Sequence record: PZ379177.1
Source of the DNA: a phage
DNA: 64,000 bases
Reading direction: 5' to 3' (one strand)
In this document: one piece after another, positions 18,040 to 44,727 of the stretch
How the letters are laid out: each line of letters starts with the position of its first letter
Position numbering within the stretch: the stretch's first letter is position 1
Translations under genes and position numbers: made by a program
The notes under the pieces: model-generated
The model's database searches: none
What the model was told of the DNA's origin: nothing
The model's input: the letters and a program-made list of their open reading frames with translations, nothing else

Positions 18040-18340
18040 CGCCTTAATTAGTGTGATACGGATGATACGGATAAAATGAGGCGTATTTTTATCCGTATCG
18101 GTGTATAAGCCGCGCTATCACTGGTGTGCTACGGATGATACGGATGATACGGATACTTTTCATATATAAGAGTTTATAAAAAAAATAAAATTAAATTAGA
18201 TATATAATTTTAAATTAATTTATTTGAATTCCTATAAAGTATCGCGGCAACGCGTATCATCCGTATCATCCGTAAGATTCTTTTGAAAACAACTACTTAC
18301 TTGATACGGATGATACGTCATTATACGCGTAAAATCCTGC
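18040..18340. repeat. TACGGAT-family repeat module, copy 1
   Basis: About 9 copies, e.g. GTGATACGGATGATACGGATAAAA, a 13-bp-arm palindrome GATACGGATAAAA...TTTTATCCGTATC, GCTACGGATGATACGGATGATACGGATAC and CGTATCATCCGTATCATCCGTAAGATTC, flanking an AT-rich core (AAAAAAAATAAAATTAAATTAGATATATAATTTTAAATTAATTTATTT). Confidence 0.75.
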
Positions 18341-18361: not shown

Positions 18362-18498
18362 TCAGTGAATATTAAAAAGCACTCCAGCAACTAAAACGCC
18401 AATCAGCATCGAGTCGTAAACAGCCCATTTCCAAGAAAGCAAAGAGTTGCAATTAATATTTCGCACTTTAACGTAACGTGACTGAATAATCTTTTGCA
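18362..18498 (-). CDS. Small hydrophobic peptide (44 aa)
   Basis: ATG preceded by AAGAGGAAG RBS; product MQKIIQSRYVKVRNINCNSLLSWKWAVYDSMLIGVLVAGVLFNIH. Below the 60-aa track cutoff. Confidence 0.3.
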
Positions 18499-18509
18499 TA
18501 ACTTCCTCT

Positions 18510-25383: not shown

Positions 25384-25599
25384 ATGAAACTAATCGACCG
25401 CGCCATCAAAGTCATTGATAATCACTCCACCGCGCTTGCTTTCGTGATGGGATTTTGTTTCACTGCTGCGTTTGGCGACGTTCACACATTCAAGTCTGTC
25501 ATCTTGTGCTGGTCCATTTGGTCACTTATTTCTCTGGTTTTGATTCTTCCGATGACATGGCTTGTTCTTACTTGTCTGGAATCTCAAGGTGAAGACTGA
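25384..25599 (+). CDS. Small membrane protein (holin-like candidate)
   Basis: 71 aa, two predicted hydrophobic helices; RBS CCGGAGGTAATATG. Confidence 0.5.
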   Translation: MKLIDRAIKVIDNHSTALAFVMGFCFTAAFGDVHTFKSVILCWSIWSLISLVLILPMTWLVLTCLESQGED

Positions 25600-26239: not shown

Positions 26240-26581
26240 ATGAACAACACTTTATCACAACTTCTAATATGGACCATCGCCGCTATCATCGGCACCGTTA
26301 TTATGATGTCAAGTGCAAAGGCCGATACGGATATTTGCGGCAGACTTATGTCTGAGAATGGCGAGATTTATTATGGCAACTCAAAAGGTGATTATATATC
26401 GACTGAAGTTTGCGCTCAGAAGAAAGCAGAAATGCAAAAGCAGTATCATGAAGATCAATCCATATCTCAGGCCGCGCTGATTGAATTAAGTATATCAGCC
26501 ATCATCTTTCTAATCGTTTTTATGCTCATTATTAAACCAAATAATGACAGCAACCGTCATATTCCTCTCAAAAGAAATTAA
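26240..26581 (+). CDS. Secreted/membrane-anchored protein
   Basis: Start set at ATG 26240 with RBS AAGAGG. N-terminal signal-like helix MNNTLSQLLIWTIAAIIGTVIMMSSAKA and a C-terminal hydrophobic helix. Confidence 0.5.
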   Translation: MNNTLSQLLIWTIAAIIGTVIMMSSAKADTDICGRLMSENGEIYYGNSKGDYISTEVCAQKKAEMQKQYHEDQSISQAALIELSISAIIFLIVFMLIIKPNNDSNRHIPLKRN

Positions 26582-26619: not shown

Positions 26620-28962
26620 ATGCCAAGGCTAATATTCAAAAACAACTTTGAGGTCGCGCTCGCTCAGCCAACGACGACTTCAAACACCACAATCACAATT
26701 CGCTCAGGGTCGGGCTTTCCGACCTTGGGCGCAAACGAGCGTGTAGTGGCGACAATCGTTGACGCTGCAACAGGCCTCCAATTCGAAATCGTCACAGTAA
26801 CAGCCGTTGTTGGAAACGTCCTGACCGTGCAGCGTGCACAAGAAGGAACTGCAGCGCGTGCATGGGCAGCTGGCGATTTACTTTCCATTCGAACAACTGC
26901 CGCGACTTTGACGGGTACTGTCCGAAACTTTGGAGAGATTCCCTCAGGCATCAACCTTAATGCGCTTACTGGCAGCTGGTTCGGTCAGTATTATCAACCT
27001 TCTAGTGGCGCAGCATCAACTGCGCTTAATTACCCACTCCAATCGTCTGGCGTGCTGGAAGTAATTCAAATTTCAGCAAATGCTTGCTCACAAAAATACA
27101 CTACCACAGTAGGTTTTGAATATAATAGAACATTTGATGGCGCATCATGGTCACCTTGGAAGAGGGTTTATAGCGAACTCGATGTAATCCCAGTCTCCAA
27201 CGGTGGTACAGGTCAAACTACCATCCAAGGAATGAAGTCTGCTTTTGGATTCGGGCAAGTCGCTGATCAGAATATTGTTCCTACTTCGATGGGCGGCACA
27301 GGCTCAGCAGACAACGCTCAAGCATGGCTAAATATTCGTCCACAAGGCTCAACACCGCTTGCTGGCGACCCAGTTAACGACTATGATGCGACAACTAAGC
27401 GTTGGGTTGAGAACTTAGTTAACACAGGCACCGTTGGCCCAAGTATGAACGGCGTCATGAACTATGGTGTTGGTGATTTCCATCTTCGCAATAGTAGATC
27501 ATATATTCAGCAATACGAAGTCGTTGCAGACGGGCAATTACTAAACCGTGCTGACTGGCCTGAACTTTGGGCATATGCACAGATGCTTTCACCCATTGCA
27601 GATGCCGATTGGCTTGCGGATAAGTTCAAACGTGCAAAATATTCTTTAGGCAACGGAACAACGACATTCCGTGTCCCAGACCTTAACGGTGTCCAGACAG
27701 GTTCTGTACGGGCGCTGTATGGGCGCGGCGATGGCGGAAACTCCACTGCGAACGGTCAAATATTCGAATCTGCCGCGCCAAACATCACAGGCTCAGCCGC
27801 AGGTGTATCGGCAGGCACTTATGCGCAAATTTTTGGCACAGCCGTCCGAGGTGCTTTTTACACAAACAATGATTTGTACCCTCAAGGCGCTGGCGACACC
27901 ATACCTGTTGGAAGCGGTGCAGTAGAGGGTCGTCTCAATACAATAAATATTGATGCATCCAGATCAAGCCCGATTTATGGAGCAGCAACTGACGAAATCA
28001 TGGGCCGCAACTTTGTAGGCATTTGGGTTATTCGTGCATCGGGCGGATTTGTTGCCGCGAATACGCAATGGCAAGTTATCAATGCTGATGCTGTTCGCCC
28101 AGGGTCTGGAGTGAAGGCATCTTCTGGACAGGTAAAGGCACAATACAAAATTGGGACGACAGTTGAAGCAGAAGCAGGATTGCGAAGCGATGCATACATG
28201 GATGGTATGTATTACGCAATAATGTCTGTCTACAACAAAACAAAAGGTGTTACAAAGGAATTTGCATTTGGCGATGATGGAATGCTGAATGGTGACAGAT
28301 ACACTGCAAGATATGGCACATTGATGGCTTGGAGTGAGACTGGTACTAGAAGGGGAACATTCTCGATTGAGAACCAGTCACTTGCGGCGAACTATGCATT
28401 CAATAGTCTGCTCAGTGGTGGGCAATCGGTATCAGCAGGATATTATACTTCTACACACTTTGGCATGATTCACAATGACGGTGGAAGCTTTGCTCAATCG
28501 TGCTGGCACGTGGTTGGTGACGAAAACAACGGGTATGGTTGCCGATTGGCGATTCAACCAAACAACGATAACATATTCTTTTATCGTTGGGTGCCTGGTG
28601 ATACCGCTACTTATACACTTGCAAAGAATGCTGTGTCTGATGAAAGGCTTAAATCTGATATCACTGATGTCTCTGTTGATAAGGCTTGGGCGAATATTGC
28701 TGCGCTTAACTTTGTTAATTTCGTCTATAAGTCCGATGAACAGCAAAGGTTGCGGCGCGGCATCATAGCACAGCCTACAGAGTTAATTGAGCCTCTTTAT
28801 GTTAAAACTCGTAAATTTTACGACGACAACAATGTGCAACAAGAGCAAAAGGAGCTTGACACAACTCCAATGCTTCTTGACACGATGCACGTGGTTCAGG
28901 AGTTGATGAAAAAGGTTGAGTCACTAGAGGCAGAGATAGCCGCGCTGAAATCAGCAAAATAA
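26620..28962 (+). CDS. Tail fibre/spike with C-terminal intramolecular chaperone (peptidase S74-like) domain
   Basis: 780 aa. C-terminal motif SDERLKSDITDVS...GIIAQPTELIEPLYV followed by a coiled-coil, as in auto-cleaving fibre chaperone domains. Gly/Thr/Ser-rich shaft. Confidence 0.8.
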   Translation: MPRLIFKNNFEVALAQPTTTSNTTITIRSGSGFPTLGANERVVATIVDAATGLQFEIVTVTAVVGNVLTVQRAQEGTAARAWAAGDLLSIRTTAATLTGTVRNFGEIPSGINLNALTGSWFGQYYQPSSGAASTALNYPLQSSGVLEVIQISANACSQKYTTTVGFEYNRTFDGASWSPWKRVYSELDVIPVSNGGTGQTTIQGMKSAFGFGQVADQNIVPTSMGGTGSADNAQAWLNIRPQGSTPLAGDPVNDYDATTKRWVENLVNTGTVGPSMNGVMNYGVGDFHLRNSRSYIQQYEVVADGQLLNRADWPELWAYAQMLSPIADADWLADKFKRAKYSLGNGTTTFRVPDLNGVQTGSVRALYGRGDGGNSTANGQIFESAAPNITGSAAGVSAGTYAQIFGTAVRGAFYTNNDLYPQGAGDTIPVGSGAVEGRLNTINIDASRSSPIYGAATDEIMGRNFVGIWVIRASGGFVAANTQWQVINADAVRPGSGVKASSGQVKAQYKIGTTVEAEAGLRSDAYMDGMYYAIMSVYNKTKGVTKEFAFGDDGMLNGDRYTARYGTLMAWSETGTRRGTFSIENQSLAANYAFNSLLSGGQSVSAGYYTSTHFGMIHNDGGSFAQSCWHVVGDENNGYGCRLAIQPNNDNIFFYRWVPGDTATYTLAKNAVSDERLKSDITDVSVDKAWANIAALNFVNFVYKSDEQQRLRRGIIAQPTELIEPLYVKTRKFYDDNNVQQEQKELDTTPMLLDTMHVVQELMKKVESLEAEIAALKSAK

Positions 28963-28971
28963 TTCACTCAA

Positions 28972-28996
28972 GGCGCTGAAAAGCGCCTTTACTTTA
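28972..28996 (+). terminator. Putative rho-independent terminator after the tail fibre gene
   Basis: Hairpin GGCGCT-GAAA-AGCGCC followed by a T-rich tract. Confidence 0.45.
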
Positions 28997-29043
28997 TGCT
29001 CGATTAAGTTATACTCATTATACGTTAACAAGTGAGGTGGTTC

Positions 29044-29250
29044 ATGGAAATTAAAGTATTGTCCGATTTTGTGAAAAGTATCGAAGCCAAAGGCATGACA
29101 ATCAAGGCCAAAGGCAGTCTCGTTTGCATTGATAAGCAACAAAGCGATCAAAGTATATCACTTGATGATATCAAAACGATGCAAAAGCTCAATAAGAAAG
29201 GTGCTTTGCACGAGTTCTTAACGGATATTGGAGCAGTGGACAATGGATAA
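29044..29250 (+). CDS. Hypothetical protein
   Basis: Track ORF starts at GTG 29032; ATG 29044 preferred (MEIKVLSDF...) with RBS GAGGTGG. Confidence 0.45.
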   Translation: MEIKVLSDFVKSIEAKGMTIKAKGSLVCIDKQQSDQSISLDDIKTMQKLNKKGALHEFLTDIGAVDNG

Positions 29251-29341
29251 AGAGGCACGGCGCTTTGCATTTTGGGGCACGGTTTGTGTTGTCTCCCTGT
29301 TTGGGATAGTTTACGCAATCATTCATGCTGCTGCGGCATAA
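29243..29341 (+). CDS. Small hydrophobic peptide (32 aa)
   Basis: ATG overlaps the upstream stop (ATGGATAA); product MDKEARRFAFWGTVCVVSLFGIVYAIIHAAAA. Below the track cutoff. Confidence 0.3.
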   Translation: MDKEARRFAFWGTVCVVSLFGIVYAIIHAAAA

Positions 29342-29344
29342 ATT

Positions 29345-29740
29345 ATGATCATCGATATTGAAAAGGCGCTTAAGCGTGAACTGACACCAGGCGCAACTCC
29401 TGGTGAAGAAGCCTACTACCGACCAAAGTCGCAACGCACCAATGATATTCCGGTCGCCAAGCGTACAGTGAATAAAAACGGTCAGCGGTCGCGACCGCGC
29501 TCTATCCGGTCCGGTGAGAAGCTGAAAACGATTCGTCAGTGTCTACAACGCCTCGAAATCATGGGTTGTCGCGCTTATATCGACCCTGATGGAAAGGTTC
29601 TGGTGAGAATTGGCAATAGTACACAACTACAAGACGGATTGCCCTGCGGCGAATCCAGACCCATAGCCAAGACCGACCGTGTAGCTACTGGCCGCGAGAT
29701 TGAGGAAAGTTGGTTGGGTGCTTTCTTATTAAAATATTGA
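29345..29740 (+). CDS. Hypothetical basic protein
   Basis: 131-aa ORF, Arg/Lys-rich. Confidence 0.5.
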   Translation: MIIDIEKALKRELTPGATPGEEAYYRPKSQRTNDIPVAKRTVNKNGQRSRPRSIRSGEKLKTIRQCLQRLEIMGCRAYIDPDGKVLVRIGNSTQLQDGLPCGESRPIAKTDRVATGREIEESWLGAFLLKY

Positions 29741-29747
29741 GGATTAT

Positions 29748-29945
29748 GTGAATCAAAATGAATCAGTAGCATTCTTACAATGGCTGGAAGGTGTGGTGGA
29801 GTATTACGCTCCAAAAGACCGCTTCATCTTTCAAGGAAAAAGTTACAAGCGCAAAGGGCAGGCCCAGAAAGCAGCGCGTAAGTACTGGAAGGAAGTTTAT
29901 TCAGAGTTCTTTCAGCAGATGGGCAGCACAGTTGGTATCGATTGA
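29748..29945 (+). CDS. Hypothetical protein
   Basis: 65-aa ORF. Confidence 0.45.
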   Translation: MNQNESVAFLQWLEGVVEYYAPKDRFIFQGKSYKRKGQAQKAARKYWKEVYSEFFQQMGSTVGID

Positions 29946-30043
29946 TGAATGTTGATTTCGTGATGTTTTTGATCATATTGGCGATAAGTTCAGTATTTGT
30001 TGTCGCTATGATCGCGCTTATTGATTGGTTGGATAAATAAATC
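29945..30043 (+). CDS. Small hydrophobic peptide (32 aa)
   Basis: ATG overlaps the upstream stop (TGATG); product MNVDFVMFLIILAISSVFVVAMIALIDWLDK. Below the track cutoff. Confidence 0.3.
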
Positions 30044-30749
30044 GTGGTTTTGGTGATTTTGGTGATTTAACCGTGAATCGTGGGTCGCTGTGGCGGCCCT
30101 TTCTTTTGCCTGCCGCGCAGGAGTGTACTGCAAATTTACTGTGGGCACAAAATAGTACGGTACTGTCCAGGACTTTTTCTTTGAAAAGTTAGTGGACCAA
30201 ATGTGTCGTATTTTGATTAGTGTACTGCAAATTCCATCAAGTAGCAAAACGCACCAAAAGACCCATGCCATAAAAACCACACGAACGCAATAATCAATCG
30301 CCGTTACAGTTTCCAGCGTTACAATTCGAAAGCGAATGATTCGATGCATAATAATATGAAGCATAATGATTCGAAAGCTAATGATTGCGTGTAGGATAAT
30401 ATCGGTGGGGATTATTCTAGATGCATGTAATTTCGCATGCGTACTATTTTCGGACGAAGGGTCGGCATATTCCTCGTTTTAGTTCGGAACGAAGGGAAAG
30501 TTTTGCGCCTTTATAAAACAATGACTTACGCGACCCGCCCTAACGGTCCGATATAGGTGTCTATATAAAACAAGGACTTACGCGATGTTCTCCATTTAAC
30601 GTAATACCCGTTATGCGAACTAAGGCGCATCTCGACGAAGATTATGCGACGACGAAGGGAAGGATAAAGGAGTTTTCGCGGAGAAGCGCATCGAGATAGG
30701 GACGAAGAAAAGCCGCGACTAAGCGCGGCCTATTAGTAACGGAAGGGTA
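30040..30749. repeat. Long non-coding repeat-rich region
   Basis: No credible ORF. Contains tandem TGGTGATTT x2, GTGTACTGCAAAT at about 30124 and 30221, AATGATTCGAAAGC-like x2, ACGAAGG x4, and TATAAAACAA(T/G)GACTTACGCGA twice (30510-30535, 30561-30587). Confidence 0.6.
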
Positions 30750-33699: not shown

Positions 33700-34110
33700 C
33701 AAATCATAGTGCTGAATGGATAACGGACCGTGGTGCGTGGTGTACTGTTTGATACGGATAAAAGAAATCCATCCCTTTCGCCGCTTGTTATGCAAATCAA
33801 TGACTTAGCCGCTGCTGGCTGGTTTAAGCGTATCATGACGTATCATCCGTATTGCCGCAAGTCTTTGTTTTTACTTATATCTTACGGATAATACGTTAAA
33901 TATATAAATTAACATAAGTATGAGGATGTAGAAAAAAAATTAATTTAAATTAATTCAAAATGGAGTTAATTAATTTTTGAAATAATTCTGGTTACAATAA
34001 GGAAAAATGGCGTATCATCCGTATCATCCGTAAGATTCAGTGTACAAATCCAGGCGCGGCGCACCCTAGCGCCATGATACGGATAAAAACCTATCCGTAA
34101 GAGTGTACGC
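33700..34110. repeat. TACGGAT-family repeat module, copy 2
   Basis: About 8 direct and inverted copies of GATACGGAT/ATCCGTATC flanking an AT-rich core (GAAAAAAAATTAATTTAAATTAATTC...). Shares the exact 29-mer CGTATCATCCGTATCATCCGTAAGATTC with the module at 18.2 kb. Confidence 0.75.
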
Positions 34111-44317: not shown

Positions 44318-44608
44318 TCAGCAAGGAAATTGGTTGGCGTATGCCTTTCTCAATTTGTTTACTGATTGAACAGCATGAAGGTATTGGCAATCGGTGAAGA
44401 TGCGGCGCAAATGATCCATAGAAGACAGGTCATCGTTAGTAACCACCAGAATCTCTTCCGAAGGACAGCCAGCTTCTTTGACAATCTCATTGAGATTTGC
44501 GCCACTAATTTCTTCAACACGTTTCACCTCATCGATACCGTAAACATCAACGGCAACTTCGATGTCGTCATCGCTGATATTTTCACCATAAAGAATTACA
44601 ATATTCAT
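44318..44608 (-). CDS. Hypothetical early protein
   Basis: 96-aa acidic ORF. Confidence 0.45.
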   Translation of the reverse strand: MNIVILYGENISDDDIEVAVDVYGIDEVKRVEEISGANLNEIVKEAGCPSEEILVVTNDDLSSMDHLRRIFTDCQYLHAVQSVNKLRKAYANQFPC

Positions 44609-44727
44609 CCACTCACCCCTGCCAAATAATATGCCATATCCAATACATATAATAGCCCCAGGATGATGACAAGGGAAATGATTAATGTGTATTTCTTTAC
44701 GGCTTTCATAAGTATCTATACCTAAAT

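What the first reader, a model, noticed from the sequence alone, without database searches (positions are those of the whole stretch)
29243..30043. Small hydrophobic peptides missed by the 60-aa ORF cutoff
Translationally coupled ORFs of 32 aa (29243-29341, overlapping ATGGATAA) and 32 aa (29945-30043, overlapping TGATG), and a 44-aa ORF at 18362-18498 on the minus strand, each encode a single hydrophobic helix. Peptides like these can be holins, antiholins, exclusion factors or membrane-targeted host inhibitors.
Basis: seen in the sequence. Interest (0 to 1): 0.35.

Follow-up and report, generated by a model that had tools for sequence, protein, structure and literature searches.

The report
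Three real small phage membrane-peptide genes
Three tiny genes (31-45 codons) in this E. coli Wifcevirus phage are real, conserved genes for single-helix membrane peptides; some related genomes already list them as 'hypothetical', none looks like a holin, and their function is still unknown.

Summary
The window is a Wifcevirus, a PB1-like E. coli myovirus. All three ORFs exist, with small coordinate slips, and each encodes one strongly hydrophobic helix.

All three are protein-coding by comparative tests:
- sORF1 (29243-29341, 32 aa) is intact in 18/18 genomes. Variable sites fall 7/4/20 by codon position and pN/pS is 0.19. It matches in all 29 Wifcevirus records.
- sORF2 (29945-30040, 31 aa) has pN/pS 0.045, but it is an accessory ~90-nt indel module found in only 3 deposited phages and one metagenomic contig.
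- ORF3 (18362-18499 minus, 45 aa) shows 12/12 synonymous changes and is in 29/29 records. Synteny, leave-one-out HMMs and a bridging contig tie it to a small tail-anchored peptide family shared with Serratia MTx gp030 and Pbunavirus PHROG 5611 (297 records).

A hydrophobic 38-aa control ORF fails the same tests.

sORF1 and sORF2 lie in a tightly coupled five-gene operon with its own near-invariant terminator and promoter. The SD-less 131-aa gene depends on sORF1.

None fits a holin class, matches a holin family, or lies near the endolysin or spanins.

Most likely they are single-pass inner-membrane micro-proteins acting on larger membrane partners. Many depositors already annotate them as hypothetical proteins. 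The finding is ordinary but sound.

The parts
29243..29341 (+). sORF1: 32-aa single-pass membrane peptide (MDKEARR, then a 25-residue TM segment ending AAAA). Core gene of the genus Wifcevirus.
   Evidence: Intact in 18/18 genomes. The stop changes between TAA (13), TGA (4) and TAG (1) but keeps its position. Variable sites 7/4/20; pN/pS 0.19 against 1.1-1.6 in the other frames. SD energy -5.6 kcal/mol. tblastn matches all 29 Wifcevirus records and nothing else.
29945..30040 (+). sORF2: 31-aa very hydrophobic peptide (MNVD, 22-residue TM, DWLDK). Accessory gain/loss module.
   Evidence: TGATG coupling. Five copies known: window, Bas99, WFC, Bas98 and the metagenome contig L023. Variable sites 2/1/13; pN/pS 0.045 against >3 in the other frames. 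Only 4 phage records carry it. ECML-117 and Bas101 keep the ATGAA start but lack the ~90-nt body.
18362..18499 (-). ORF3: 45-aa tail-anchored peptide with a basic N-terminal half, an SWKW-x-YD motif and a C-terminal TM helix. Last gene of the portal / MuF-like / head-fibre operon.
   Evidence: SD AGAGGAAG, -6.0 kcal/mol. 12/12 substitutions synonymous. Present in 29/29 Wifcevirus records, 27 of them identical. Syntenic counterparts occur in Myosmarvirus, Pbunavirus and Tabernariusvirus, and are the top hit in 4/4 leave-one-out HMM searches. The bridging relative P0009 on L027 links them.
28970..28989 (+). Intrinsic terminator ending the tail-fibre gene transcript.
   Evidence: 8-bp stem with a T-run. 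Invariant in 17 genomes.
28988..29015 (+). Sigma-70-like promoter TTTACT-16-TATACT of the sORF1 operon.
   Evidence: 12/12 match to a motif found 5 times in the window against 0.18 expected. The intergenic region is nearly invariant across 17 genomes.
29044..29250 (+). First operon gene (68 aa, phrog_5649, unknown function). Its stop overlaps the sORF1 start.
   Evidence: Strong SD, -8.9 kcal/mol. The genes at this position in ECML-117 (gp23) and vB_Eco4M-7 (_26) were detected by mass spectrometry (PMC7048862). At least three different genes occupy this slot in relatives while sORF1 is kept.
29345..29740 (+). 131-aa basic protein, the invariant downstream partner of sORF1. It starts 3-4 nt after the sORF1 stop and has no SD of its own.
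   Evidence: SD energy -1.7 kcal/mol. It follows sORF1 in 18/18 genomes. Only 6 clusters in 5.8 billion proteins, all on Wifcevirus-like contigs. pN/pS 0.235. No Pfam or PHROG hit.
29748..29945 (+). 65-aa gene (GTG start) whose TGA stop overlaps the sORF2 ATG. Its 3' end is indel-rich in relatives (64-86 aa).
   Evidence: SD -6.0 kcal/mol.
30082..30099 (+). Intrinsic terminator closing the five-gene operon.
   Evidence: 7-bp stem with 6 GC pairs, then TTTCTTTT. Annotated as a terminator at the equivalent place in WFH.
44605..44709 (-).
   Evidence: 19-residue hydropathy 2.43. Present in 28 Wifcevirus records at >=95% identity. Annotated as CPT_Mansfield_080. No dN/dS test was run on it.

Best explanation
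All three ORFs are translated genes for single-pass inner-membrane micro-proteins of a Wifcevirus phage. None is a holin.

**sORF1 and sORF2**
- They sit in a five-gene operon: 68 aa, sORF1, 131 aa, 65 aa, sORF2.
- The operon lies between two terminators and is driven by its own conserved sigma-70-like promoter just downstream of the variable tail-fibre gene.
- Ribosomes pass from gene to gene through overlapping or abutting stop and start codons.
- sORF1 is inferred to insert N-in (MDKEARR in the cytoplasm), with a 25-residue helix and almost no periplasmic tail.
- sORF1 is inferred to act through one conserved helix face that packs against a larger membrane protein of the host or the phage.
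- sORF1 also delivers ribosomes to the SD-less 131-aa gene. This would explain why the pair is never separated.
- sORF2 is an accessory peptide of the same general kind that is gained and lost as a ~90-nt module.

**ORF3**
- It belongs to a family of ~41-49-aa tail-anchored peptides: a variable N-terminus, a K-x4-D juxtamembrane motif, and a C-terminal helix.
- The family closes the portal/MuF-like operon in PB1-like phages (Wifcevirus, Myosmarvirus, Pbunavirus, Tabernariusvirus).
- It is inferred to act at the inner membrane during the structural-gene phase.

**Shown versus inferred**
- Shown: existence, protein-level constraint, distribution, operon anatomy, coupling geometry, hydrophobicity, synteny.
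- Inferred: membrane insertion, topology, partner binding, timing.
For: **Coding**
- Variable sites by codon position are 7/4/20 (sORF1), 2/1/13 (sORF2) and 2/0/10 (ORF3), with p <= 9e-4 each.
- ORF3 has 12/12 synonymous changes (P=1e-8).
- pN/pS is 0.19 (sORF1) and 0.045 (sORF2) in frame, against >1 out of frame.
- Antisense frames of sORF1 carry stops in most genomes.
- A negative-control hydrophobic ORF fails these tests.

**Persistence**
- sORF1 is kept behind three different upstream genes, and where the 131-aa partner has dropped to 65% identity.

**Distribution**

**Translation signals**
- SD energies are -5.6 (sORF1) and -6.0 (ORF3), against a long-gene median of -5.8 and a small-ORF background of -0.9 kcal/mol.
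- The 131-aa gene has -1.7.

**Expression**
- The gene just upstream of sORF1 was detected by MS in two phages.
- The terminator, promoter and SD block is near-invariant.

**Membrane character**
- See, plus the Phobius note on the ORF3 orthologue.
- 21/32 sORF1 positions are invariant and all substitutions are conservative.
- Variable and invariant TM positions lie on roughly opposite helix faces.

**ORF3 family**
- Syntenic small ORFs occur in three other genera.
- The syntenic ORF is the top hit in 4/4 leave-one-out HMM searches.
- P0009 on L027 has 67% core identity. It is preceded by a homologue of Ab27 ORF39 / MTx gp029 and followed by the same repeat-bearing intergenic region and protease start.
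- The Ab27 peptide is phrog_5611 (E=1e-34). MTx gp030 hits it at E=0.03.
Against: - There is no direct evidence of translation or membrane insertion for any of the three.
- The ORF3 orthologue (vB_Eco4M-7_39) was annotated but not detected by MS. This is uninformative, because the peptide is small and hydrophobic and has few usable tryptic peptides.
- sORF2 has only a weak SD (-3.5 kcal/mol) and just five known copies.
- The helix-face asymmetry of sORF1 is modest (resultants 0.22-0.34).
- ORF3 itself does not reach phrog_5611 at E<=1. Its leave-one-out E-value is only 0.015, and shared hydrophobic composition may inflate it.
- No partner has been identified. The AF2 model of the 131-aa neighbour was unusable (pLDDT 43.7).
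- The temporal class cannot be read from the promoter, because sigma-70-like promoters occur genome-wide.
Confidence: 0.6

Rival explanations
1. One or more of the peptides is the phage's missing holin, pinholin-like depolariser, or an antiholin/lysis-timing factor.
For: - No holin is annotated in the curated Mansfield genome.
- No candidate in the genome matches a holin family.
- The multi-TMD protein that some Pbunavirus records call a holin has no homologue in this window.
- Wifcevirus lysis genes are scattered rather than in a cassette: the endolysin and spanins sit at separate loci.
- The genus is reported to lyse extremely fast (PMC11990801).
Against: - Each peptide has a single TMD with 0-5 flanking C-terminal residues. 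It therefore fits neither class I (3 TMD), class II (2 TMD) nor class III (1 TMD plus a large periplasmic domain) (PMC9636201).
- The genes lie 21-32 kb from the endolysin and spanins.
- sORF2 is absent from most members of the genus, so it cannot be the essential holin.
- Better-shaped candidates exist: a 71-aa two-TMD protein with an acidic C-terminus at 25384-25599, and the 70-aa Mansfield_053 convergent on the endolysin.
Confidence: 0.1
2. sORF1 matters mainly as a translated leader. Its role is to bring ribosomes to the SD-less 131-aa gene, and the peptide itself has no function.
For: - The 131-aa gene has no SD (-1.7 kcal/mol) and starts 3-4 nt after the sORF1 stop in 18/18 genomes.
- The pair is never separated.
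Against: - A pure coupling ORF would not show amino-acid-level constraint.
- pN/pS is 0.19, equal to or lower than the 131-aa gene's 0.235.
- 21/32 residues are invariant and all changes are conservative.
- The length is exactly 32 codons in all genomes.
Confidence: 0.1
3. ORF3 and its PB1-like relatives are a membrane anchor or nucleation factor for procapsid (portal) assembly. This would be functionally analogous to the membrane-associated initiation of T4 prohead assembly. The T4 comparison is from my own knowledge and was not tested here.
For: - ORF3 is always the last gene of the portal / MuF-like head-morphogenesis operon and lies immediately upstream of the protease-scaffold-capsid operon, in four genera.
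- It is very strongly conserved, with 27/29 records identical.
- It has a tail-anchored architecture with a basic cytoplasmic half.
Against: - The argument rests on position only.
- The N-terminal half, which would be the part contacting head proteins, is not conserved between genera or in P0009. That argues against a conserved protein-protein contact there.
- The peptide was not detected in virion or lysate MS.
Confidence: 0.15
4. The ORFs are chance reading frames in conserved non-coding or regulatory DNA.
For: - They are short.
- sORF2 is T-rich with a weak SD.
- A neighbouring 38-aa hydrophobic ORF at 30366-30482 really is such an artefact.
Against: - Third-position-biased variation and low in-frame pN/pS are seen for all three ORFs.
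- Stop positions are maintained despite stop-codon turnover.
- Out-of-frame and antisense controls fail, and so does the negative-control ORF.
- No Rfam family or tRNA overlaps them.
Confidence: 0.03

Closest known systems
PHROG 5611: the Pbunavirus 46-aa 'hypothetical / putative membrane protein' (e.g. Epa13_00022; unannotated in the Ab27 RefSeq record), and Serratia phage MTx gp030
   Same: The genomic slot matches: after the portal / MuF-like genes (and a 60-69-aa gene), and before the capsid maturation protease. Sizes are alike at 41-49 aa. Both have a K-x4-D juxtamembrane motif followed by a C-terminal hydrophobic helix that runs to the end of the protein. The syntenic ORF is the top hit in every leave-one-out HMM search.
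   Different: The N-terminal halves are unrelated in sequence. ORF3 does not itself reach the PHROG 5611 HMM at E<=1. In Wifcevirus a head-fibre gene replaces the gp029-like gene upstream. No family member has a known function.
Canonical phage holins: class I lambda S105, class II S21-68 (pinholin), class III T4 T
   Same: They are small phage-encoded inner-membrane proteins. The holin of this phage is unassigned.
   Different: The peptides have one TMD with no soluble domain and are 31-45 aa. They have no highly charged C-terminal tail (sORF1 ends AAAA). They are not linked to the endolysin or spanins, and they match no holin family.
Bacterial single-TM regulatory micro-proteins such as KdpF (29 aa), MgtS (31 aa), CydX (37 aa) and AcrZ (49 aa). 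Sizes and functions are from my own knowledge.
   Same: Size and a single TM helix with a few flanking charged residues. One helix face appears conserved in sORF1. This is the best functional analogy: a helix that binds and modulates a larger membrane protein.
   Different: There is no sequence relationship. They are phage-encoded and genus-restricted. No partner is known.
Small genes in phage and microbiome genomes found by large-scale surveys (e.g. the GMSC catalogue, PMC11364881; Pro-SMP finder, PMC10903887)
   Same: They are sub-50-aa ORFs that annotation size thresholds often skip. They frequently encode a single membrane-anchoring helix and are recognised by conservation rather than homology.
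   Different: These particular families are confined to Wifcevirus (sORF1, sORF2) or to PB1-like phages (ORF3). Many depositors already annotate them.

Membership tests
Holin (class I / II / III) | At least one transmembrane helix in a small phage protein | tested here: met
   19-residue hydropathy is 2.25, 3.04 and 1.87. Phobius found a TM domain in the ORF3 orthologue.
Holin (class I / II / III) | Topology of a recognised class: 3 TMDs, 2 TMDs, or 1 TMD plus a large periplasmic domain (PMC9636201) | tested here: not met
   Each has one TMD. C-terminal flanks are 0 (sORF1), 5 (sORF2) and 1 (ORF3) residues.
Holin (class I / II / III) | Genetic linkage to the endolysin and/or spanin genes | tested here: not met
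   On the Mansfield map the sORF1 slot is near 5.06-5.12 kb and ORF3 is at 15.9 kb. The endolysin is at 37.4 kb and the spanins at 40.5 kb.
Holin (class I / II / III) | Sequence membership of a described holin family | tested here: not met
   No Pfam or PHROG holin hit. All hits are E>0.01 or fall in 'unknown function' PHROGs.
Holin (class I / II / III) | Timed, energy-poison-triggerable lethal hole formation that releases or activates the endolysin | not testable with these tools
   This needs expression and lysis assays.
PB1-like small tail-anchored peptide family (PHROG 5611 and relatives), for ORF3 | Conserved position at the end of the portal/MuF-like operon, upstream of the capsid maturation protease | tested here: met
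   Seen in Wifcevirus, MTx, Ab27/Epa13, tabernarius and contig L027.
PB1-like small tail-anchored peptide family (PHROG 5611 and relatives), for ORF3 | Shared architecture: 41-49 aa, a K-x4-D motif, and a C-terminal TM helix to the end of the protein | tested here: met
   See the alignment and sequences.
PB1-like small tail-anchored peptide family (PHROG 5611 and relatives), for ORF3 | Statistically significant sequence match to the family profile | tested here: inconclusive
   An HMM built from the other three genera ranks ORF3 first of 1,454 six-frame segments, but only at E=0.015. ORF3 does not hit phrog_5611 at E<=1. MTx gp030 hits it at E=0.03. The bridging relative P0009 matches ORF3 at E=3.5e-4.
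Single-TM regulatory micro-proteins (KdpF / MgtS / AcrZ type) | Under 50 aa with one TM helix and short charged flanks | tested here: met
Single-TM regulatory micro-proteins (KdpF / MgtS / AcrZ type) | Physical binding to, and modulation of, a larger membrane protein | not testable with these tools
   There is only an indirect hint: conserved and variable helix faces lie on opposite sides in sORF1.
Type I toxin-like membrane peptides (Hok / TisB / Ibs type) | Membership of a described toxin peptide family, or presence in bacterial chromosomes or plasmids | tested here: not met
   No Pfam hit. No match in 5,426 E. coli genomes. sORF2 found no match in 72,556 plasmids.
Superinfection-exclusion membrane proteins (e.g. 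T4 Imm / Sp) | Blocks DNA entry of a superinfecting phage | not testable with these tools
   No sequence similarity to any annotated family. The function would need infection assays.

The most novel reading that the evidence does not exclude
The ORF3 family is a ~45-aa tail-anchored peptide conserved at the end of the portal operon in PB1-like myoviruses, including the therapeutically used Pbunavirus. It could be an essential and so far unrecognised membrane factor. One option is that it tethers or nucleates procapsid assembly at the inner membrane. Another is that it acts as a minimal lysis-timing or depolarising peptide in phages whose holin is unassigned. In parallel, sORF1 could be a genus-specific modulator of a host membrane protein, working together with its inseparable 131-aa partner.
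Probability: 0.12. Interest if true: 0.6.

Novelty: new member of a known kind. Interest (0 to 1): 0.3.

Why it matters
In practice, size cutoffs and uneven annotation hide real genes. sORF1 is a core gene of the genus but is missing from 7 of 15 annotated relatives, including RefSeq FEC19 and ECML-117. The Pbunavirus counterpart of ORF3 is missing from at least one RefSeq record.

Biologically, Wifcevirus is an understudied genus with reportedly very fast lysis and no assigned holin, and Pbunavirus phages are widely used in therapy. A short list of conserved membrane micro-proteins (sORF1, ORF3/PHROG 5611, the 34-aa peptide, and the accessory sORF2) gives concrete, easily deletable targets. 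They can be used to study lysis timing, superinfection exclusion, or membrane-associated assembly.

As it stands the result is solid gene validation, not a new mechanism.

Tried and rejected
1. **Metagenome-scale search for sORF1 and sORF2.** The tool refuses queries under 40 aa. I used tblastn on 50,697 phage records and a search via the 131-aa partner instead.
2. **Pfam and PHROG scans.** I scanned the peptides, their operon neighbours and every holin-shaped candidate. Nothing informative came back.
3. **AlphaFold2 of the 131-aa partner, to infer the operon's function.** Mean pLDDT was 43.7, so I ran no fold search.
4. **Timing the operon from its promoter.** TTTACT-16-TATACT recurs 5 times against 0.18 expected. 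However, sigma-70-like promoters precede early-looking and structural operons alike, as in Pbunavirus 14-1. No temporal class can be assigned.
5. **Homologues in E. coli chromosomes, prophages and plasmids.** None were found.
6. **Antisense ORFs overlapping sORF1** (29189-29434, 81 aa; 29148-29318, 56 aa). Rejected, because stops appear in most relatives and there is no coding signature.
7. **The 38-aa hydrophobic ORF at 30366-30482 as a further peptide.** Rejected as non-coding: variable sites 7/7/5 and stops in RCIP0363 and kaset.
8. **The Pbunavirus 'holin' as a way to assign the Wifcevirus holin.** It has no homologue in the window.
9. **Rfam and tRNA scans.** Nothing overlaps the loci.
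10. **The Mansfield genome announcement.** It says nothing about lysis genes.
Full report
**What the window is.** Megablast of both loci finds only the 29 deposited records of the genus Wifcevirus. These are the E. coli/Shigella myoviruses FEC19, ECML-117, WFH, WFC, Mansfield and Bas98-101, distant relatives of Pseudomonas PB1-like phages. Aligning the window to the curated Mansfield record shows that the window covers the genome except for about 4 kb. The missing stretch contains the second tail fibre and the GH19 endolysin.

**Checking the observation.**
- sORF1 is exactly as described: 29243-29341, 32 aa, with an ATGGATAA overlap on the upstream stop.
- sORF2 has the TGATG junction as stated but ends at 30040, not 30043. 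It is 31 aa from the ATG.
- ORF3 is 18362-18499 on the minus strand and 45 aa.
- Each has one strongly hydrophobic stretch. The 19-residue Kyte-Doolittle maxima are 2.25, 3.04 and 1.87.
- Among 278 ATG-ORFs of 25-59 aa in six frames, only four reach 2.2. sORF2 is the most hydrophobic of all.
- One of the remaining two, at 44605-44709(-), is a fourth peptide of the same kind.

**Are they genes?** I collected the orthologous regions from 15 deposited relatives and two metagenomic contigs. The contigs were reached through the 131-aa neighbour.

*sORF1*
- It is intact and exactly 32 codons in 18/18 genomes.
- The stop codon changes between TAA, TGA and TAG without moving.
- Variable sites fall 7/4/20 by codon position (p=9e-4).
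- Pooled pN/pS is 0.19 in frame, against 1.1-1.6 in the other frames. This matches the neighbouring 131-aa gene (0.235).
- Antisense frames carry stops in most genomes.
- It persists behind at least three different upstream genes, and in a contig where its partner has fallen to 65% identity.

*sORF2*
- Five copies are known. Variable sites are 2/1/13 (p=2.5e-4).
- pN/pS is 0.045 in frame, against >3 out of frame.

*ORF3*
- It shows 12 variable sites in six genomes. All are synonymous (P=1e-8), and the protein is identical in 27 of 29 records.

*Negative control*
- A 38-aa hydrophobic ORF at 30366-30482 gives 7/7/5 and has in-frame stops in two relatives, so the test discriminates.

*Translation signals*
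- Anti-Shine-Dalgarno energies are -5.6 (sORF1) and -6.0 (ORF3) kcal/mol. The median is -5.8 for long genes and -0.9 for background small ORFs.
- sORF2 is weak at -3.5 and would rely on TGATG coupling.

*Other checks*
- No Rfam family or tRNA overlaps the loci.

**Distribution and prior annotation.**
- tblastn against 50,697 phage records finds sORF1 and ORF3 in all 29 Wifcevirus records and nowhere else.
- sORF2 is in only four records: Bas99, Bas98 and WFC (twice).
- Nothing from the operon occurs in 5,426 complete E. coli genomes, and sORF2 has no match in 72,556 plasmids.
- sORF1 is already annotated as a 99-nt hypothetical protein in 8 of 15 annotated relatives. It is missing from 7, including FEC19, ECML-117 and Mansfield.
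- sORF2 is annotated in Bas99 and Bas98.
- ORF3's orthologue is annotated in most of the records examined. One depositor notes 'transmembrane domain found with Phobius'.
- The genes are therefore not new as database entries. No function is recorded for any of them.

**Anatomy of the sORF1/sORF2 operon.**
- The tail-fibre gene (26620-28962) ends in a terminator hairpin at 28970-28989.
- A TTTACT-16-TATACT promoter-like element and a GTGAGGTG Shine-Dalgarno follow directly.
- This ~75-bp block is almost invariant in 17 genomes and is more conserved than the flanking coding DNA.
- Five genes follow and end at a second terminator (30082-30099): 68 aa, sORF1, 131 aa, 65 aa and sORF2.
- The junctions are ATGGATAA, TAA-att-ATG, a 7-nt gap with an SD, and TGATG.
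- The 131-aa gene has no SD (-1.7 kcal/mol) and always starts 3-4 nt after the sORF1 stop. Its translation very likely depends on ribosomes finishing sORF1.
- The operon is expressed. The gene at the first position was detected by mass spectrometry in both vB_Eco4M-7 (gp26, 5 peptides, 62% coverage) and ECML-117 (gp23) (PMC7048862).
- sORF1 is unannotated in ECML-117, and in the original vB_Eco4M-7 record the match overlaps only one annotated CDS. It probably could not have been searched for.
- The promoter motif recurs 5 times against 0.18 expected. However, similar sigma-70-like promoters precede many operons, including structural ones, as reported for Pbunavirus 14-1. Timing therefore cannot be inferred.
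- sORF2 lies at an indel-rich junction. ECML-117 and Bas101 retain the ATGAA start but lack the ~90 nt that encode the helix, so it behaves as a gain/loss module.

**sORF1 peptide features.**
- Across 11 distinct variants, 21 of 32 positions are invariant.
- All substitutions are conservative: V/I/A, F/L, A/S, H/Y.
- The N-flank MDKEARR is net positive and there is no C-flank. This suggests N-in topology with a buried C-terminus.
- Invariant and variable TM positions point to roughly opposite helix faces (about 80 and 257 degrees), with modest vector strength.
- This pattern is expected for a helix that packs against a specific membrane partner, but it is only a hint.

**ORF3 belongs to a wider family.** Sequence searches find almost nothing beyond the genus. 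There are two near-identical clusters in 5.8 billion proteins. An exhaustive phmmer search of 1.84 billion representatives adds one 41-aa relative, P0009, at E=3.5e-4. Synteny reaches further.

The slot just before the capsid maturation protease holds a small ORF in each related genus:

| Phage | ORF | Length |
|---|---|---|
| Serratia MTx | gp030 | 49 aa |
| Pbunavirus Ab27 | unannotated (annotated in Epa13) | 46 aa |
| Pseudomonas phage tabernarius | CNR33_00035 | 44 aa |

- All share a K-x4-D motif followed by a hydrophobic helix that runs to the C-terminus.
- An HMM built from any three genera ranks the syntenic ORF of the fourth first among all six-frame segments. E-values are 0.015 (of 1,454 segments), 5e-7, 9e-5 and 0.04.
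- The P0009 contig supplies a bridge. Its peptide keeps the core NSLLSWKWA-YDS--IG-L, at 67% identity to ORF3.
- On that contig the peptide is preceded by a 60-aa gene that is 76% identical to Ab27 ORF39 and 65% identical to MTx gp029. It is followed by the same repeat-bearing intergenic region and the protease start.
- The Pbunavirus peptide defines PHROG 5611 (unknown function) and is present in 297 phage records.
- ORF3 itself does not reach that HMM, so I treat family membership as likely but not proven.
- The N-terminal half is not conserved between genera. The constrained part is the juxtamembrane motif plus the helix.

**The holin question.**
- Mansfield's curated annotation has an endolysin (37.4 kb) and an i-/o-spanin pair (40.5 kb) at separate loci, and no holin.
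- The multi-TMD protein that some Pbunavirus records call a holin has no homologue here.
- The three peptides nevertheless fail the tests I could run:
  - They have one TMD and 0-5 residues beyond it, so they fit none of the three topology classes.
  - They show no family match.
  - They are not linked to lysis genes.
  - sORF2 is absent from most of the genus.
- Better-shaped candidates exist. One is a 71-aa protein with two TMDs and an acidic tail that opens the tail-fibre operon (25384-25599). Another is the 70-aa Mansfield_053, convergent on the endolysin.
- I put a lysis role for any of the three at about 0.1.

**Most likely mechanism.**
- Shown: these are constrained, expressed-operon genes that encode single hydrophobic helices. 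sORF1 is structurally coupled to the 131-aa gene. ORF3 is a positionally fixed member of a PB1-like family.
- Inferred: the peptides insert into the inner membrane and act as bacterial single-TM micro-proteins do, by packing against a larger membrane protein of the host or phage. sORF1 also serves as the ribosome delivery ORF for its partner. ORF3 acts at the membrane during the structural-gene phase, possibly in head assembly.
- The target and the phenotype are unknown.
- An AlphaFold2 model of the 131-aa partner was too poor (pLDDT 43.7) to help.

**Verdict.** The holin reading is not supported, and the broader 'membrane-targeted factor' reading remains plausible but untested. The finding is an ordinary, well-supported case of small phage membrane genes that are unevenly annotated. 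The modest new point is that ORF3 links to a family conserved across PB1-like phages.

Noticed in passing
window 18054-18318 (four clusters) and 34010-34035; AT-rich tract about 18165-18240: A tandem 9-mer, CCGTATCAT(CCGTATCA), occurs in both orientations: 8 matches at <=2 mismatches against 0.01 expected. It flanks a ~75-nt almost pure A/T tract in the 420-nt gap between ORF3 and the capsid-protease gene, which has a TTGCCT-17-TATAAT promoter at 17996-17968. The same repeats and AT tract recur in the divergent metagenomic relative L027. This looks like an operator or iteron array.
   Followed up: partly
It is present in 28 Wifcevirus records at >=95% identity and annotated as CPT_Mansfield_080 in the primase-side operon.
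   Followed up: partly
window 30366-30482 (+) and 30437-30556 (+): A 38-aa hydrophobic ORF here is not coding: variable sites are 7/7/5 and two relatives have in-frame stops. The overlapping 39-aa ORF, annotated as CPT_Mansfield_008, also lacks a coding signature (1/5/2). The DNA itself is conserved, so this stretch near the terminal-repeat boundary is probably regulatory or non-coding.
   Followed up: partly
window 25384-25599 (+) and 26240-26581 (+): The first is a 71-aa protein with two TM segments and an acidic C-terminus. It is the first gene after a TTGCCT-16-TATAAT promoter. The second is a 113-aa protein with a signal-peptide-like N-terminus and a C-terminal TM anchor. Both lie in the tail-fibre operon. 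They are better-shaped holin or membrane-effector candidates than the three peptides, but neither matches any holin family.
   Followed up: partly
window 30040-30110, compared with L001-L006, L010, L015, L022 and L023: This phage lacks the 126-131-aa gene (Mansfield_010-like, MKGNDMSNKND...) that follows the 65-86-aa gene in the other relatives whose loci extend far enough. Here sORF2 runs straight into the operon terminator.
   Followed up: no
window 28988, 31508(-), 31580, 46603(-) and 63503: The promoter-like motif TTTACT/TTGACT-N16-TATACT/TATAAT occurs 5 times at <=1 mismatch, against 0.18 expected. The other four copies precede the divergent terminal-repeat genes, the primase operon, and the operon that converges on the endolysin.
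   Followed up: partly
L025 1541-1681 (Pseudomonas phage vB_PaeM_PAO1_Ab27, NC_026586.1): The PHROG 5611 peptide gene (46 aa) is present with an ATGA overlap on ORF39, but it is not annotated in this RefSeq record. The same gene is annotated in Epa13 and many other Pbunavirus records.
   Followed up: yes
window 29345-29740 (+): The 131-aa basic protein that always follows sORF1 is an orphan: 6 clusters in 5.8 billion proteins and no Pfam or PHROG hit. It has no Shine-Dalgarno of its own, and its AlphaFold2 model has pLDDT 43.7.
   Followed up: yes
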